64,000 bases of DNA from Eubacteriales bacterium (GTDB taxonomy: Bacteria > Bacillota > Clostridia > Lachnospirales > Lachnospiraceae), in NCBI GenBank assembly GCA_036453165.1, contig JAZHVR010000013.1, positions 19,821 through 83,820 on the forward strand. The letters are read 5' to 3'. Position numbers and translations under genes: made by a program. The notes under the pieces are model-generated. The model worked only from the letters and a program-made list of their open reading frames with translations, was not told the DNA's origin and did no database searches. Below are positions 16,786-20,868 of this stretch, piece after piece (the stretch's first letter is position 1; the number at the start of each line of letters is the position of its first letter).

Positions 16786-18060
16786 ATGAGTGAGATAACG
16801 AGTACAGAACAGTTTGAAGATATTCTTGCCATGGATATAGATACGGATTCCGATAAAGATCTCGCGGTTTACGCATCAGCGGTGCTGAAGAAGGGCGAGG
16901 GACGCACGCTGAAAAAGGGCGGACTCTGGGTGTACGACAATGAGATCGCCTCGGTGACGGGAAGTTTTGAGGACGGCGATATCATCGGCGTGCAGGATTT
17001 TGACGGCTGGTTTATGGGATATGGCTATATCAACAGAAAGTCGAAAATACGGATCAGGATGCTGTCGCGCGGGAAAGCCGAAGAAAAGGTTTCGCCTGCG
17101 TACCTGAAGGCAAAGGTCCGTTTTGCCTGGGAGTACAGGAAAAAAGTCATTGATACTTCGAGCTGCCGTGTGATTTTCGGCGATGCGGACGGACTTCCCG
17201 GAATCACTGTCGATAAATACGAAGATGTGCTGGTTGTCGAGCCTCTTTCACTGGGTGCTGACAGGCTGAAGGATCTGATCCTTAAGGCAATCGTTGAGGT
17301 GATGGCTGAGGATGGGATCACGATTCGCGGGATTTTTGAGCGGAGCGATGCGAAGGAGCGCGAAAAAGAAGGTCTCCCGAGAGTCAGGGGATTTCTCTCA
17401 CAGCCGTTTGATACGGACGTGCCGATTACAGAAAACGGTGTCCGATATATCGTCGATGTCAAGGACGGACAGAAGACGGGATTTTTCCTAGATCAGAAGC
17501 TGAACCGGCTGGCCGTTCAGAAAATATCGAAGGGCGCAGATGTCCTCGACTGCTTCACGCACACAGGATCTTTTGGTCTGAACGCGGCGCGCGGCGGAGC
17601 GGCACATGTGATTTCCGTCGATGCATCGGATACGGCAATCGAAATGGCTGAGAAAAATGCAAAGATCAACGGTTTCGATGACATTATCGACTACTATGTG
17701 GCCGACGTCTTTGAGCTGCTTCCGGATCTGGAAAAGAAGGGCAGGAAATTTGACATCGTCATTCTCGATCCTCCCGCCTTCACCAAATCGAGGAGCTCCG
17801 TCAAAGCTGCCGCCAAAGGATACAAGGAAATCAATCTCCGCGGTATGCGGCTCGTGAAAAAAGGCGGTTTCCTGGCAACCTGCAGCTGTTCTCACTTCAT
17901 GGAGCAGGCTATGTTTGAGAATATCATCCGCGAAGCGGCGCGCGATGCTCACGTGCACCTGCGCCAGGTTGAATTCCGCACACAGGCCCCGGATCACCCG
18001 ATCACCTGGGCGGCAGACGACTCCTATTATCTGAAGTTCTTTATCTTTCAGGTGTACTGA
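16786..18060 (+). CDS. Class I SAM-dependent rRNA methyltransferase (RlmI/YwbD-like, PUA + MTase)
   Basis: Motifs GQKTGFFLDQ, VLDCFTHTGSFG and VILDPPAF. Confidence 0.9.
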   Translation: MSEITSTEQFEDILAMDIDTDSDKDLAVYASAVLKKGEGRTLKKGGLWVYDNEIASVTGSFEDGDIIGVQDFDGWFMGYGYINRKSKIRIRMLSRGKAEEKVSPAYLKAKVRFAWEYRKKVIDTSSCRVIFGDADGLPGITVDKYEDVLVVEPLSLGADRLKDLILKAIVEVMAEDGITIRGIFERSDAKEREKEGLPRVRGFLSQPFDTDVPITENGVRYIVDVKDGQKTGFFLDQKLNRLAVQKISKGADVLDCFTHTGSFGLNAARGGAAHVISVDASDTAIEMAEKNAKINGFDDIIDYYVADVFELLPDLEKKGRKFDIVILDPPAFTKSRSSVKAAAKGYKEINLRGMRLVKKGGFLATCSCSHFMEQAMFENIIREAARDAHVHLRQVEFRTQAPDHPITWAADDSYYLKFFIFQVY

Positions 18061-18081
18061 TTGTCAATTTTTATGGCGCAG

Positions 18082-18820
18082 GCGCATCACATGCGACTGT
18101 TTTGTATTTCTGATGCGCCTGGCAGAACATATTCTTCTGGCGCAGGCGCATCACATAATCAAATTCAGGTTTTTTATGCGCCTGGTCACGAGGTGTGGAA
18201 CTCCGTGGGCACATCAAATAATCAAGATAGGGAAAGATGATGCGCTCCTTTATGAAGTATTAATTTCCGCTAGCGCATCAAACAATCAAGATAAGAGAAG
18301 ACGATGCGCCCGACATCGAGGTATCAATTCTCGCGGGCGCATTAAATAATCAAGATAGGGAAAGATGATGCGCTCCTTTATGAAGTATTAATTTCCGCTA
18401 GCGCATCAAACAATCAAGATAAGAGAAGACGATGCGCCCGACATCAAGGTATCAATTCTCGCGGGCGCATTAAATAATCAAGATAGGGAAAGATGATGCG
18501 CTCCTTTATGAAGTATTAATTCCCGCTAGCGCATCAAACAATCAAGATAAGAGAAGACGATGCGCCCGACATCAAGGTATCAATTCTCGCGGGCGCATTA
18601 AATAATCAAGATAGGGAAAGATGATGCGCTCCTTTATGGAGTATCAATTCCCGCTAGCGCATCAAACAATCAAGATAAGAGATGATGATGCGCCCGACCA
18701 ACAATTCCGCAGGTTCTGTGGCGTATCCAACAGTCAAGATAAAGGAGAATGATGCGCCCACCCATGGGGACCAGGGCCTCGCGAGCGCATCATGAAATCA
18801 AGAGTATTCATCTGGTGGCG
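18082..18820. repeat. 64-bp-period tandem array of 12 palindrome-bounded units (core alternates A/B, 128-bp super-period)
   Basis: GCGCATC-type left arms start at 18082, 18146, 18209, 18273, 18337, 18401, 18465, 18529, 18593, 18657, 18721 and 18785; each is followed by an approximately 23-bp loop, GATGCGC and a 27-bp linker (unit 12 degenerate). Confidence 0.95.
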
Positions 18821-18828
18821 ATTACAGG

Positions 18829-18858
18829 TTGAAAGAGACGCCCGATCTATGCTATAAT
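18829..18858 (+). promoter_or_regulatory. Sigma70-type promoter of scfA
   Basis: TTGAAA-18 bp-TATAAT with extended -10 TG. Confidence 0.65.
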
Positions 18859-18917: not shown

Positions 18918-19061
18918 ATGAAACATATCAAGACTTTATCCAGCAGAAATCTTCAGCAGAGCGTTAAGGAAGGCGGATGCGGCGAGTGCCAGACATCCTG
19001 CCAGTCCGCTTGCAAGACAAGCTGCACCGTAGGCAACCAGACCTGCGAGCATGCGAAGTAA
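18918..19061 (+). CDS. scfA: Six-cysteine ranthipeptide precursor (SCIFF), 47 aa; absent from the ORF track
   Basis: Translated by hand as MKHIKTLSSRNLQQSVKEGGCGECQTSCQSACKTSCTVGNQTCEHAK; GGAGG ribosome-binding site; precedes a radical SAM/SPASM maturase. Confidence 0.97.
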   Translation: MKHIKTLSSRNLQQSVKEGGCGECQTSCQSACKTSCTVGNQTCEHAK

Positions 19062-19088: not shown

Positions 19089-19117
19089 TTCCCGCCCTTC
19101 CGGGCGGGAATTTTTTT
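19089..19117 (+). terminator. Rho-independent terminator after scfA
   Basis: TTCCCGCCC-TTCC-GGGCGGGAA followed by T7. Confidence 0.85.
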
Positions 19118-19128
19118 GCGCGTGTAGC

Positions 19129-19340
19129 GAGCCGCATCCTCTCACGCGAAGCGTGAAGAGGTGAGGCGAGCACCGCGACGACGCGACGAAGTCGCGTATG
19201 CGCGTGGAATGAGCCGCATCCACTCACGCGAAGCGTGAAGAGGTGAGGCGAGCACCGCGACGACGCGACGAAGTCGCGTATGCGCGCGGAATGAGCCGCA
19301 TCCACTCACGCGAAGCGTGGAGAGGTGAGGCGAGCACCGC
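19129..19340. repeat. 82-bp tandem palindromic repeat, about 2.6 copies
   Basis: GAGCCGCATC starts at 19129, 19211 and 19293; each unit has a CACGCGAAGCGTG hairpin and the two complete units also have ACGCGACGAAGTCGCGT. Confidence 0.92.
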
Positions 19341-19380
19341 AAAATAATATTATTCAATACACTACAGAGAGGCATCAACA

Positions 19381-20868
19381 GTGATTCATTTATTCAAAAA
19401 CAATGGCTATAATCTCTGCCTTGACGTGAACAGTGGTTCTGTGCATGTTCTGGACAATCTGTCTTACGATGTTCTTTCGCTGATGAGCGAGGGCAGGGAG
19501 AAAGATGATATTATCAGCAGTCTGTCTGACAAATATGATCCCGCGGAGATTTCCGAGACGATCAGTGAGTGTGACGCGCTAAAGGCCGAGGGGTCACTTT
19601 TTTCAGAGGATCCCTATAAACCGGCTATCGAAAAGTTTACCGAAAGGCCGACGGTCGTCAAGGCACTCTGCCTGCAGATCGCACATGACTGCAACCTCGC
19701 CTGCCGCTACTGCTTTGCAGATGAGGGCGAATATCACGGCAAGCGCGGAATGATGTCCTACGAGGTTGGAAAAAAAGCCTTTGATTTCCTGATCAGAGAA
19801 TCTGGGAACAGACGCAATCTCGAGGTGGACTTCTTTGGCGGCGAGCCGACGATGAACTGGCAGGTTGTAAAGGATCTCGTCGCATACGGCAGATCGCTGG
19901 AAAAAAAGTACAACAAGCATTTCCGCTTTACACTTACCACAAACGGCGTGCTTCTCAATGATGAGATCATGGATTTTTGCGACAAGGAGATGGACAACGT
20001 TGTCATGTCCGTTGACGGCAGACGCGAAGTGCACGATCACATGCGCCCGTTCCGAAATGGAAAGGGTAGCTGGGATCTCGTCGTTCCGAAGTTCCAGAAA
20101 TGGGCGGAACGCCGTCATCAGGAAAAATATTATGTGAGAGGTACATTTACTCACTATAACCTTGATTTTGCGAAGGACGTCATCGCCATGGCGGATCTCG
20201 GATTCACGCAGATCTCCATTGAGCCTGTTGTGGCGCCGCCTACGGAGGACTACGCGATCCGCGAGGAGGATATCCCCGAGATCTGTGAGCAGTACGACAT
20301 CCTCGCAAAAGAGATGATAAAGAGGGCAAAAGAGGGACGCGGCTTTAATTTCTTCCATTTTATGGTCGATCTTACGGGCGGCCCCTGCGTTTACAAGCGT
20401 CTCTCCGGCTGCGGTGCCGGCGGCGAATATCTCGCTGTTTCGCCGTGGGGAGAGCTTTATCCCTGCCATCAGTTCGACGGAAACCGCGATTTTATCATAG
20501 GAAATGTCGATGACGGAATCACCCGGCCGGATCTGGTACAGGCATTTAAAAATGTGAACGTTTACTCGAAGGAAGAGTGCTCGAAGTGCTTTTCAAGGTT
20601 CTTCTGCTCGGGCGGCTGCGCTGCGAACTCCTATAATTTCACCGGCGGGATCAATGACGTATACAAGATTGGATGCGAACTTCAGCGCAAACGTATCGAA
20701 TGTGCTCTGATGATCAAAGCGGCACTGGCTGACGATGAAGGCGACACCAAGATGCGGATCGATGGCTCAAGGGCCATTGATGGCACAAAAGATCCGGGTG
20801 TCGACCACAGCTCCTACGCGCAGAACGCGGACTGTGAGGCATGTGAGATCCCGGCTCAGAGGTGCTGA
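19381..20868 (+). CDS. scfB: Thioether cross-link-forming SCIFF peptide maturase (radical SAM/SPASM)
   Basis: Radical SAM motif CNLACRYC, FFGGEP, SPASM cysteines GCGAGGEY...PCHQF...CSKCFSRFFCSGGCAANS. Confidence 0.96.
   Translation: MIHLFKNNGYNLCLDVNSGSVHVLDNLSYDVLSLMSEGREKDDIISSLSDKYDPAEISETISECDALKAEGSLFSEDPYKPAIEKFTERPTVVKALCLQIAHDCNLACRYCFADEGEYHGKRGMMSYEVGKKAFDFLIRESGNRRNLEVDFFGGEPTMNWQVVKDLVAYGRSLEKKYNKHFRFTLTTNGVLLNDEIMDFCDKEMDNVVMSVDGRREVHDHMRPFRNGKGSWDLVVPKFQKWAERRHQEKYYVRGTFTHYNLDFAKDVIAMADLGFTQISIEPVVAPPTEDYAIREEDIPEICEQYDILAKEMIKRAKEGRGFNFFHFMVDLTGGPCVYKRLSGCGAGGEYLAVSPWGELYPCHQFDGNRDFIIGNVDDGITRPDLVQAFKNVNVYSKEECSKCFSRFFCSGGCAANSYNFTGGINDVYKIGCELQRKRIECALMIKAALADDEGDTKMRIDGSRAIDGTKDPGVDHSSYAQNADCEACEIPAQRC

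What the first reader, a model, noticed from the sequence alone, without database searches (positions are those of the whole stretch)
18082..18820. Phased 64-bp array of alternately inverted heptamers ending at the SCIFF (scfA) promoter
Seen directly: 12 units with left arms at 18082, 18146, 18209, 18273, 18337, 18401, 18465, 18529, 18593, 18657, 18721 and 18785. Each unit is GCGCATC + about 23 bp + GATGCGC + 27 bp. The 37+27 geometry survives even in the outer units (1, 2, 10-12), whose loops and linkers have diverged widely. Units 3-10 alternate between two types (128-bp super-period) and are almost identical. Arms also pair across the linkers (ATGCGCCCG/CGGGCGCAT; GATGCGCT/AGCGCATC), so the heptamer flips orientation every 30/34 bp, about 3 helical turns. 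The period is not a multiple of 3, so it is not a coding repeat. The array ends 8 bp before the -35 box of scfA. Inference: spacing, not sequence, is under constraint. That suggests a phased protein-binding scaffold, a processed multi-hairpin RNA, or a REPIN-like array amplified by an enzyme encoded elsewhere. Each arm contains GCATC/GATGC and GCGC, so a methylation-sensitive cluster is another option. I do not recognise it as a named element.
Basis: partly seen in the sequence, partly recalled or inferred. Interest (0 to 1): 0.72.

Follow-up and report, generated by a model that had tools for sequence, protein, structure and literature searches.

The report
Dispersed hairpin arrays tied to nuclease
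The 64-bp repeat array in front of the SCIFF gene is real, but it is one of about 23 such arrays scattered through this Lachnospiraceae genome, and arrays of this build sit next to a previously undescribed nuclease-like gene in several bacterial phyla, which suggests a new nuclease/hairpin-repeat pairing like REP-RAYT or NTS-SsnA.

Summary
Observation confirmed. Window 18075-18820 holds 12 units of GCGCATC-N23-GATGCGC-N27, with a 128-bp super-period. Independent assemblies carry 12 or 14 units, so it is a genuine variable-number repeat.

It is not specific to scfA. The genome (2.4 Mb, a Lachnospiraceae near Bilifractor from digesters and landfills) has about 23 intergenic arrays and about 525 heptamers, spaced 30/34 bp almost without exception. 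They flank unrelated housekeeping genes. The genome has no RAYT and no Cas1.

One array pair, in inverted orientation, brackets a 273-aa gene (contig C4:151422-152243). That gene has no Pfam family. Its C-terminal domain is restriction-endonuclease-like (PD-(D/E)xK). Its homologs number over 1000 and occur in Fibrobacter, Treponema and Lachnospiraceae. They carry an adjacent phased inverted-repeat array in 15 of 21 loci read, against 0 of 80 control loci. Arm sequences differ between species but stay complementary, and within the genus a loop motif (AAATCAAG) is conserved.

Metatranscriptomes show satellite arrays transcribed passively with their neighbours. The nuclease locus is silent.

Best reading: a satellite copy of a nuclease-associated hairpin-repeat family. 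How the nuclease acts is inferred, not shown.

The parts
18075..18820 (+). 12-unit, 64-bp-period array of the GCGCATC-N23-GATGCGC-N27 family. Left arms lie at 18082, 18146, 18209, 18273, 18337, 18401, 18465, 18529, 18593, 18657, 18721 and 18785. The loop motif AATCAAGAT is on the + strand.
   Evidence: Copy number varies between assemblies, 12 or 14 units.
18207..18698 (+). Homogenised core: A/B unit pairs with a 128-bp super-period, 3.8 copies, 97% identical. This is the part that expands and contracts.
   Evidence: L237 carries one extra A/B pair.
16786..18060 (+). Upstream gene: PUA-domain SAM-dependent methyltransferase (RlmI-like). Its stop codon lies 22 bp before the first heptamer arm (18082), with no terminator between.
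   Evidence: Pfam PUA_3, Methyltrans_SAM. An RNA contig runs from this gene into the array.
18829..18858 (+). Predicted scfA promoter: TTGAAA, 18-nt spacer, TG-TATAAT.
   Evidence: consensus match only. The RNA contig X26 18758-19042 starts upstream of it, so read-through from the array also enters scfA.
18918..19061 (+). scfA (SCIFF peptide, 47 aa).
19090..19117 (+). scfA intrinsic terminator: CCCGCCC-TTCC-GGGCGGG stem-loop followed by a T run.
   Evidence: stem shown in the cmscan alignment.
19117..19362 (+). A second, unrelated tandem repeat: 82 bp x 2.7, between the scfA terminator and scfB. It is not part of the 64-bp family.
   Evidence: Copy number differs between assemblies.
19381..20868 (+). 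scfB (radical SAM SCIFF maturase).

Best explanation
The scfA-upstream array is one satellite copy of a lineage-specific, dispersed family of strictly phased tandem hairpin units (7-nt arm, 23-nt A/T-rich loop, 7-nt inverted arm, 27-nt G/C-rich linker). It is not a dedicated SCIFF regulator.

Shown:
- The family has about 23 intergenic arrays (16.9 kb, 0.7% of the genome).
- Copy number changes in 128-bp steps between populations.
- The arms and the spacing are conserved far more than the loops and linkers.
- Arrays have no detectable promoter of their own. They appear in RNA only where a neighbouring gene reads into them.
- Arrays of the same architecture lie beside a 273-aa gene with a PD-(D/E)xK-type C-terminal domain, in this genome and in its homologs across phyla. 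Arm sequences are species-specific but always complementary.

Inferred:
- The nuclease-like protein recognises its cognate hairpin or inverted repeat, most likely as DNA (single-stranded or extruded).
- Its action (binding, nicking, and repair or template switching) maintains the arm sequence and the spacing, and seeds new arrays, preferentially near its own gene.
- Ordinary unequal recombination or replication slippage then expands and contracts each array.

Functionally this resembles REP/BIME with RAYT and NTS repeats with SsnA, with a different enzyme fold and an obligately tandem, phased repeat. At scfA the array is a passenger that becomes part of the rlmI 3' read-through and scfA leader transcripts.
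For: Dispersal: 144 exact hairpins in the genome against 0 in the reversed-pattern control. 22-23 arrays were mapped, all intergenic, next to groES, codY, dnaJ, atp genes, ftsH/uvrC, polC, valS and others. Only one solitary exact hairpin lies outside the mapped arrays, and it belongs to a further decayed array at C4:129.5-130.0k.

Constraint: information content is 1.5-2.0 bits at the arm positions and below 0.5 bits at most loop and linker positions. Spacing of 30/34 bp holds in about 395 of 460 neighbouring arm pairs.

Variable copy number: 12 versus 14 units in independent assemblies.

No RAYT, no Cas1, and almost no multicopy genes.

Gene link: C4:151422-152243 is flanked by arrays in inverted orientation. 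Arrays on C4 become denser towards it. Its homologs have adjacent phased arrays in 15 of 21 loci by TRF, k-mer counts or inspection. A strict exact-match detector finds 8 of 21 homolog loci against 0 of 80 control loci covering 656 kb. Of the six loci without an array, four have the gene within 107 bp of a contig end.

Covariation: at least 12 different arm sequences, each with its complement. The loop motif AAATCAAG is conserved within the genus.

Satellite arrays also occur in the relatives G003, G010 and G016.

Within the genus, arrays were found in 8 of 11 genomes that have the gene and in 1 of 10 without it.

Nuclease fold: AlphaFold2 pLDDT 92.7. The Foldseek hits that align as endonuclease domains are restriction-endonuclease-like (DrdV, Bax1, XisH, MunI, FAN1, arenavirus endonuclease), among unrelated weak hits. 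PADLOC PDC-S68 scores 6e-30 over residues 139-261. Invariant residues are E171, D201, E216 and H217.

Passive transcription: array RNA/DNA ratio is about 0.11, equal to upstream ftsH, against 0.03 for downstream uvrC. RNA contigs are contiguous with flanking genes. There are no RNA contigs over the nuclease gene and its two arrays, although DNA reads cover them.
Against: No biochemical or genetic evidence links the protein to the repeats. Adjacency and co-occurrence are the only evidence.

Foldseek E-values are weak (0.012 or higher), and the canonical (D/E)xK lysine is not in the usual position (E216-H217-F218).

No target-site duplications or empty sites were found that would prove mobility.

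G011 has two arrays but no detectable gene. G020 has arrays only beside the gene plus one other contig. Second gene copies in G003 and G004 have no array.

The gene is silent in the only metatranscriptomes available.

Five of the C4 arrays lie between paralogous surface-protein genes, so they may have multiplied by segmental duplication rather than by any enzyme.

In most homolog loci the array lies upstream of the gene on the same strand, sometimes right against the start codon. That fits an RNA-leader or RNA-antitoxin role as well as a DNA role.

The MAG is 92% complete, so another enzyme could have been missed.
Confidence: 0.55

Rival explanations
1. A type III toxin-antitoxin-like module. 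The array next to the nuclease gene would be transcribed into a multi-hairpin RNA that the protein (a PD-(D/E)xK RNase) processes and that neutralises it. The 22 other arrays, including the scfA one, would be extra or decayed antitoxin copies.
For: The array lies directly upstream of the gene and in the same orientation in 14 of 15 array-bearing loci. In L251, L282 and L284 the last unit ends 10-60 nt before the start codon, which leaves no room for a separate promoter. Terminator-like hairpins sit between array and gene in the Fibrobacter loci L247 and L250. Stems covary while a loop motif is conserved. The nuclease domain matches phage-defence candidates in PADLOC. Foldseek hits include RNA-cutting PD-(D/E)xK enzymes, the arenavirus cap-snatching endonucleases.
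Against: There are no RNA contigs over the gene-proximal arrays or the gene, in libraries where neighbouring genes reach depth 10-100. No promoter or terminator is predicted between array and gene in this genome. Satellite polarity relative to transcription is about 50/50. G-U versus A-C mismatches are 43 versus 45 on the motif strand. The toxin fold is not ToxN/AbiQ. Units are 52-95 nt, against 34-45 nt in known systems (Blower et al. 2012, PMC3401426, abstract only seen here; unit sizes and fold from my own knowledge).
Confidence: 0.2
2. A double-stranded DNA binding scaffold, operator- or iteron-like. The protein, or another factor, would bind each inverted-repeat unit on one face of the helix. 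The gene-proximal array would autoregulate the gene. Dispersed arrays would titrate the protein or organise the local chromosome.
For: Arm sequence is conserved as sequence within the genome, not merely as pairing. There is no covariation beyond the arms. Spacing of 30/34 bp is about three helical turns. Mismatch types are strand-symmetric. The gene is bracketed by arrays in opposite orientation, as in the P1 plasmid, whose repA is flanked by iteron sets (from my own knowledge).
Against: The periods found in other species (52, 62-64, 74-95 bp) do not share a helical phase. The protein has no recognisable DNA-binding domain in Pfam. The invariant acidic and histidine residues point to catalysis rather than binding alone.
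Confidence: 0.13
3. A neutral minisatellite family unrelated to the nuclease gene. It would be spread by recombination and segmental duplication, and its adjacency to the gene would be coincidental.
For: Copy-number variation in super-unit steps. Five arrays sit between paralogous genes. No mobility signatures were found. G011 has arrays without the gene.
Against: Arms are about 97% conserved while loops have diverged to near randomness. Indels are almost absent despite that divergence. The gene-array association recurs in Fibrobacter-type, Treponema and Lachnospiraceae loci with different arm sequences, and in 0 of 80 control loci.
Confidence: 0.08
4. A dedicated cis-regulatory element of scfA/SCIFF expression. 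This is the reading the title of the finding suggests.
For: The array ends 8 bp before the predicted -35 box. RNA contigs link the last units to scfA.
Against: Arrays of the same family flank about 22 unrelated loci. The closest relatives lack any array at rlmI, and synteny with scfA is not conserved. Unit number varies between populations.
Confidence: 0.03
5. A degenerate or orphan CRISPR array with a 37-nt repeat and a 27-nt spacer.
For: Regular spacing of a partly palindromic repeat.
Against: The 'spacers' are homologous within and between arrays. Only the repeat ends are conserved. No Cas1 is present. No Rfam CRISPR repeat matches the array.
Confidence: 0.01

Closest known systems
REP/BIME elements with RAYT (TnpA-REP, Y1 HUH transposase) of Proteobacteria
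   Same: Species-specific extragenic palindromic units are clustered in regularly spaced arrays. Length is highly polymorphic between strains. The units are transcribed as parts of neighbouring mRNAs. The cognate enzyme gene is itself flanked by the repeats in inverted orientation. New copies accumulate preferentially near that gene (Nunvar et al. 2010, PMC2817692; Ton-Hoang et al. 2012, PMC3333891; Di Nocera et al. 2013, PMC3733652).
   Different: No Y1/HUH transposase is present. There is no GTAG or CGTC tag. The units occur only in tandem arrays of three or more, never as singletons or doublets. The stem is only 7 nt with a large 23-nt loop. The period is strict. The linked gene has a PD-(D/E)xK-type fold. 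The host is a Firmicute.
NTS/SRM hairpin repeats with SsnA (GIY-YIG site-specific ssDNA nuclease), Neisseria and others (PMC11893778)
   Same: A small nuclease gene of a widespread 'hypothetical' family is flanked by its own hairpin repeat. The repeat sequence differs between species and co-evolves with the enzyme. Some species show massive expansion. The genomic distribution is clustered and non-random.
   Different: The nuclease superfamily is different. The repeats here are phased tandem arrays rather than single 20-50-nt hairpins. No activity has been shown.
Type III toxin-antitoxin systems (ToxIN, CptIN, TenpIN, AbiQ)
   Same: A tandem array of short repeats lies immediately upstream of a nuclease gene on the same strand, sometimes with a terminator between them. 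CptIN occurs in Lachnospiraceae relatives (PMC3401426, PMC4627078).
   Different: The toxin fold is different. The units are longer and palindromic. Here the arrays are dispersed genome-wide in both orientations, and the gene-proximal arrays are not transcribed in the available data.
MIRU-type intergenic minisatellites of mycobacteria (from my own knowledge)
   Same: Tandem repeats of 40-100 bp lie at tens of intergenic loci within transcription units and vary in copy number.
   Different: MIRUs are not palindromic. Many carry short ORFs coupled to the flanking genes. No associated enzyme is known.
CRISPR arrays
   Same: Regularly interspaced, partly palindromic repeats genetically linked to a nuclease gene.
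   Different: The linkers are not unique spacers. There are no cas genes. Only the ends of the repeat are conserved.

Membership tests
REP/BIME-RAYT | Cognate RAYT / IS200-IS605-type Y1 transposase encoded in the genome | tested here: not met
   PF01797 six-frame search of the whole assembly found no match. The controls matched in 6 of 14 genomes. The assembly is 92% complete.
REP/BIME-RAYT | Short imperfect palindromes (20-40 bp), extragenic, more than 100 copies | tested here: met
   37-bp units, 226 hairpins with at most 1 mismatch per arm, all intergenic.
REP/BIME-RAYT | Conserved GTAG or CGTC tetranucleotide at one foot of the hairpin | tested here: not met
   The position profile shows only R-GCGCATC-A.
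REP/BIME-RAYT | Units also occur as singletons and inverted doublets (REPINs) | tested here: not met
   Only one exact solitary hairpin lies outside the mapped arrays, and it is part of a decayed array.
Type III toxin-antitoxin | Tandem repeat array directly upstream of the toxin gene on the same strand | tested here: met
   Seen in 14 of 15 array-bearing homolog loci and in this genome.
Type III toxin-antitoxin | Toxin of the ToxN/AbiQ/CptN/TenpN endoribonuclease fold | tested here: not met
   No Pfam, NCBIfam or PADLOC hit to these families. The model is restriction-endonuclease-like.
Type III toxin-antitoxin | Abundant repeat RNA, with a terminator between repeats and toxin gene | tested here: not met
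   No RNA contigs over the locus. No terminator predicted in this genome. Terminator-like hairpins are present in L247 and L250 only.
Type III toxin-antitoxin | Protein toxic; repeat RNA neutralises it | not testable with these tools
   Needs expression tests.
CRISPR-Cas | Unique spacers between conserved repeats | tested here: not met
   Linkers are homologous within and between arrays.
CRISPR-Cas | cas1 or other cas genes in the genome | tested here: not met
   PF01867 search found no match. Only Cas1 was searched.
NTS-SsnA (Ssn family) | GIY-YIG single-domain nuclease flanked by its hairpin repeat | tested here: not met
   The flanked gene has a PD-(D/E)xK-type fold, not GIY-YIG. The genome was not searched for GIY-YIG genes.
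Rfam structured RNA families | Match to a curated covariance model | tested here: not met
   Nothing above E=0.85 in the window region. Nothing at gathering score over 11 homolog loci except an unrelated T-box.

The most novel reading that the evidence does not exclude
A third, undescribed class of nuclease/hairpin-repeat partnership exists alongside RAYT-REP and SsnA-NTS. In it, a ~270-aa protein with a PD-(D/E)xK-type domain (no Pfam family; >1000 homologs in Fibrobacterota, Spirochaetota, Bacillota and possibly Bacteroidota) recognises a phased tandem array of hairpins. The stem sequence of the hairpins co-evolves with the protein. In some lineages, such as this one, the protein drives genome-wide proliferation of arrays into the transcription units of housekeeping genes.
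Probability: 0.4. Interest if true: 0.8.

Novelty: new variant of a known kind. Interest (0 to 1): 0.66.

Why it matters
For SCIFF biology the result is negative. The array is a passenger and should not be read as an scfA operator.

More broadly, the follow-up points to a recurrent, cross-phylum linkage between an unannotated nuclease-like protein family and phased inverted-repeat arrays with species-specific arms. If the protein does read its cognate hairpin, three things follow:
- It adds a new enzyme fold to the short list of systems that create and maintain bacterial interspersed repeats, so the question of how such repeats arise could be tested outside Proteobacteria.
- It offers a set of naturally diversified sequence- or structure-specific nucleases, as the Ssn family did.
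- It explains a source of assembly breaks and intergenic length polymorphism in gut, rumen and digester Lachnospiraceae.

The strict 30/34-bp phasing, kept through heavy sequence divergence, is an unusual constraint and needs a structural explanation.

Tried and rejected
- Rfam scans of the window region and of 11 homolog loci found no family.
- A metagenome-wide pattern scan gave only single chance matches and one unrelated repeat.
- The exact heptamer pattern is absent from 20 congeneric species and from one genome in each of 400 genera of the family. This was first taken as 'species-specific'. It was later understood as species-specific arms on a shared architecture.
- Orthologous rlmI loci in 80 relatives were compared to define an insertion boundary. 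Synteny with scfA is not kept in the closest relatives.
- Covariation at symmetric loop and linker positions: none found.
- Global RNA folding of whole arrays on both strands showed no consistent strand or hairpin preference.
- An arm-substitution asymmetry test relative to transcription gave C>T 49 versus G>A 29, which is weak and heterogeneous. Relative to array polarity it gave 43 versus 45.
- Locating the origin by DnaA boxes and a dnaA search was inconclusive, so the chromosomal meaning of the C1/C4 clustering stays open.
- GCGCATC is neither avoided nor enriched outside arrays, ratio 1.04. This argues against a restriction-site role.
- Multicopy-gene census: almost no IS elements.
- Pfam, NCBIfam, PHROGs and PDB sequence searches of the 273-aa protein found nothing.
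- A MAFFT alignment of hairpins from different species did not keep the arms in register, so no formal pair-count test was run.
- Literature searches for the heptamers, for PDC-S68/S69 and for comparable Firmicute repeats found no description of this element.
Full report
**1. The observation**

Window 18075-18820 contains 12 head-to-tail units of 64 bp (63 bp once). Each unit is GCGCATC, about 23 nt, GATGCGC, then 27 nt.

- Eight units match GCGCATY-N(18-28)-RATGCGC exactly, against 0.02 expected by chance.
- The outer units carry one or two arm substitutions.
- TRF reports period 64 and a 128-bp super-period at 97% identity without indels.
- The repeat finder shows seven 64-bp-spaced copies in register.
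- The arms also pair across the 27-nt linker, so the heptamer flips orientation every 30/34 bp.
- The array starts about 15 bp after the stop codon of an RlmI-like PUA-methyltransferase gene (the first arm, at 18082, lies 22 bp after it). It ends 8 bp before a strong consensus promoter for scfA.
- It is not an assembly artefact. A JGI assembly has the same 12 units. An ENA assembly has 14, one extra A/B pair.

**2. It is a genome-wide family, not an scfA element**

The window's assembly is 2.40 Mb in 17 contigs, 92% complete. It holds 144 exact hairpins of this pattern and none in the reversed-pattern control.

Mapping all GCGCAT/ATGCGC hexamers gives 22-23 arrays of 3 to about 25 units, 16.9 kb in all. 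Every one is intergenic.

The neighbouring genes are unrelated housekeeping genes:
- groES/groEL and codY
- dnaJ/prmA
- atp genes
- aspS/nudC
- valS
- ftsH/uvrC
- polC/sufC
- trxB
- a row of large paralogous surface proteins

Intergenic types are mixed: 3 divergent, 4 convergent and the rest co-directional.

There are no solitary units. The single exact hairpin outside the mapped arrays belongs to a further decayed array at C4:129.5-130.0k.

Across about 525 arms, spacing is 30 bp in 204 cases and 29 bp in 22. The return spacing is 34 bp in 191 cases and 33 bp in 13. Arm positions carry 1.5-2.0 bits of information, and most loop and linker positions carry less than 0.5 bits.

Loops are A/T-rich (GC 0.21-0.41) with a semi-conserved AATCAAGAT four nt after the left arm. 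Linkers are G/C-rich (GC 0.49-0.73).

Outside arrays the heptamer occurs at its expected frequency (observed/expected 1.04).

**3. Organism and distribution**

The RlmI-like protein is 73-78% identical to proteins of Bilifractor and unnamed Lachnospiraceae. Public runs that hold the locus come from biogas, landfill and bioreactor metagenomes.

The exact heptamer pattern is absent from 20 congeneric species and from one genome in each of 400 genera of the family. Relatives have no array downstream of rlmI.

The genome has no Y1/RAYT transposase, no Cas1 and almost no multicopy genes.

Arrays are strongly clustered:
- 13 on contig C4 between 41 and 153 kb
- 7 on C1 between 136 and 323 kb
- 4 elsewhere
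- none on about 1.6 Mb of other contigs

I could not place the origin of replication.

**4. Transcription**

Four metatranscriptome runs from one study hold this organism.

- RNA contigs run from rlmI into the array, cover internal units, and link the last three units to scfA.
- In a low-coverage run a contig starts at 18758, upstream of the scfA -35 box.
- At ftsH-array-uvrC, unique array pieces have the same RNA/DNA ratio as the upstream ftsH (about 0.11), against 0.03 for the downstream uvrC. RNA is missing over the four uvrC-proximal units.
- A similar picture holds at aspS-array-nudC.
- There are no RNA contigs over C4:149.0-152.9 kb, although DNA reads cover it. This shows the libraries are not DNA-contaminated, and that arrays are not transcribed on their own.
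- Array polarity relative to the direction of transcription is about 50/50.
- On the motif-bearing strand, G-U and A-C mismatches in the stems are equally frequent, 43 versus 45.

I conclude that satellite arrays are transcribed passively. I see no selection for an RNA structure on a particular strand in this genome.

**5. The lead: a nuclease-like gene with its own arrays**

One gene, C4:151422-152243 (273 aa), lies between two arrays of the same subfamily in inverted orientation: 17 units upstream and 6-8 downstream, the latter starting 23 bp after the stop codon. Arrays on C4 become denser towards it.

The protein has no Pfam, NCBIfam or PHROGs family and no PDB sequence relative.

More than 1000 homologs of 264-305 aa exist, all annotated 'hypothetical'. 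They come from Fibrobacter, Treponema, Lachnospiraceae and a MAG labelled Muribaculaceae.

An alignment shows these invariant residues: VRSKSE (166-171), Y187-E188, D201-F202 (in PDF), E216-H217 (in WEHFG) and G219.

The AlphaFold2 model is confident (pLDDT 92.7).

Foldseek against the PDB gives only weak matches (E 0.012 or higher). Among them are restriction-endonuclease-like domains, alongside unrelated weak hits: DrdV, Bax1, XisH, MunI, FAN1 and arenavirus cap-snatching endonucleases.

PADLOC matches residues 139-261 to the phage-defence candidates PDC-S68 (6e-30) and PDC-S69, and in one homolog (P0093) to a PD-DEXK model.

**6. The gene-array link recurs**

In nine loci outside the genus, the homolog is preceded by 550-880 bp of non-coding DNA. 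That DNA holds 3-7 phased units of an inverted repeat:

| Arm | Locus |
|---|---|
| GGGGCATATAA | L247, L283 |
| GGGGCGTATAAA | L250 |
| TCCGATAAA | L251 |
| ACCTATAAA | L252 |
| GCATATAAA | L253 |
| GGCCTATAA | L282 (Treponema) |
| CCATAA, period exactly 64 | L284 |
| 74-bp tandem unit | L249 |

In these loci (L249, a plain tandem repeat, apart) the arm-to-arm distance is about 21-34 bp, 28-34 bp in most, and the period is 63-95 bp.

Within the genus, 11 of 21 genomes have the gene, often at contig ends. Adjacent arrays are present in:

| Genome | Period and copies |
|---|---|
| G005 | 64 bp x 6 |
| G020 | 63-64 bp x 10.6 |
| G003 | 62.5 bp x 9 |
| G010 | 52 bp x 14.7 |
| G016 | 62 bp x 5.4 |
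| G004 | 52 bp x 7.8, on the 3' side |

In total 15 of 21 loci have an array. Of the six without, two are second gene copies. The other four have the gene within 107 bp of a contig end.

A single strict detector (exact 7-mer inverted repeats, at least 3 units) finds 8 of 21 homolog loci against 0 of 80 control loci covering 656 kb.

Arms differ between species: GCGCATC, GGCGACG, GGTGACTA/AGTGACT, TTTCAC, GACAAC, GGCAAT. They are always complementary. The loop begins with a conserved (C/A)AAATCAAG on the gene's sense strand.

Relatives also carry satellite arrays away from the gene: G003 at three further loci, G016 at two, G010 at three. G011 has two arrays but no detectable gene. Counting all methods, arrays occur in 8 of 11 genus genomes with the gene and in 1 of 10 without it.

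**7. Interpretation**

What is shown:
- The scfA array belongs to a dispersed family whose arms and spacing are under constraint.
- The family varies in copy number.
- It is transcribed only passively.
- Its architecture is genetically linked, across phyla, to an unannotated protein with a restriction-endonuclease-like domain.

What is inferred: the protein recognises its cognate hairpin or inverted repeat and is responsible for keeping, and in some lineages multiplying, the arrays.

The closest working models are REP/BIME with RAYT and NTS repeats with SsnA.
- In REP/BIME-RAYT the enzyme gene is flanked by inverted repeats, and new copies arise near it (PMC2817692).
- NTS-SsnA is a small nuclease flanked by a species-specific hairpin, with expansion in some species (PMC11893778).

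Membership of either family fails on the enzyme. It also fails on repeat anatomy: no GTAG/CGTC tag, no singletons, obligate phased tandems.

The main rival is a type III toxin-antitoxin-like module. The upstream, same-strand position of the array fits it, and so do arrays that sometimes abut the start codon. It is weakened here by the silent locus, the wrong toxin fold and orientation-blind dispersal.

A duplex-DNA operator or iteron-like scaffold remains possible, as does a neutral minisatellite. A role specific to scfA, a CRISPR remnant and an artefact are effectively excluded.

**8. Limits**

- All RNA evidence comes from assembled contigs of one study, without strand information.
- Gene calls in the assembly are my own crude ORF calls.
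- The Foldseek support for the nuclease fold is weak. It rests mainly on the PADLOC profile hits and the residue pattern.
- No experiment links protein and repeat.
- The sample of homolog loci (21) is small relative to the family.

Noticed in passing
window 19117-19362: An 82-bp tandem repeat (2.7 copies) lies between the scfA terminator and scfB. It belongs to a second dispersed family with about 8 loci in the genome, some of them tandem. Copy number differs between assemblies: about 1.7 copies in L237 (one unit fewer), 2.7 here, and at least three in L238. Run X5 lacks one copy.
   Followed up: partly
own genome contig C4:129.5-151.2 kb (outside the window): Five paralogous large surface-protein genes (765-1554 aa, 41-58% identical) are each separated by a 64-bp-family array. 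DNA depth over one of them drops to 55, against 355-620 elsewhere in run X1, so the region varies between strains.
   Followed up: partly
relative G018, contigs C139, C85, C51, C87: There are four copies of the nuclease-like gene, each within about 100 bp of a contig end. In that species the gene, or its flanking array, is repeated enough to break the assembly.
   Followed up: no
relative G011, C1:446168-446426 and C18:92127-92385: Two 63-bp-period arrays carry the AAATCAAG loop motif, but no homolog of the nuclease-like gene was found at E<=1e-10 in a 99%-complete genome. In the listed units the right arm reads CGCCGCC, which gives an A-C mismatch with GGCGACG.
   Followed up: no
L247, L250, L252, L283 (Fibrobacter-type loci): The homolog keeps the same neighbour in all four loci, adenylosuccinate synthase (purA) transcribed divergently. 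The arm sequence of the array between them changes (GGGGCATATAA, GGGGCGTATAAA, ACCTATAAA). L283 is labelled Muribaculaceae but its upstream region closely matches the Fibrobacter locus L247, so it may be a mis-binned contig.
   Followed up: partly
whole own genome: The palindrome TGCGCA is under-represented outside arrays, about half of the Markov expectation after correcting for its symmetry. This may be restriction avoidance.
   Followed up: no
own genome C14:81469-82092 and C1:269221-269377: Two further unrelated tandem repeats. One, with a period of about 111 bp, forms an open frame of repeated QELTDTRGRIARQRDIEQLAARCSTRRNKQAATHTEG units. The other is a 43-bp repeat at the 3' end of a membrane-protein gene.
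   Followed up: no
L038:5240-5574: A distant relative (RUG13037) has an unrelated 98-bp x 3.4 tandem repeat immediately downstream of its rlmI gene.
   Followed up: no
L271 (G020:C47) 2073-2118: A hairpin with the window's own arms (AGGCGCATCATACGC...GCGTATGATGCGCCT) lies about 420 bp beyond the 3' end of the G020 nuclease-like gene. That gene's own array uses GGTGACTA arms. This may be a coincidence or a terminator.
   Followed up: no
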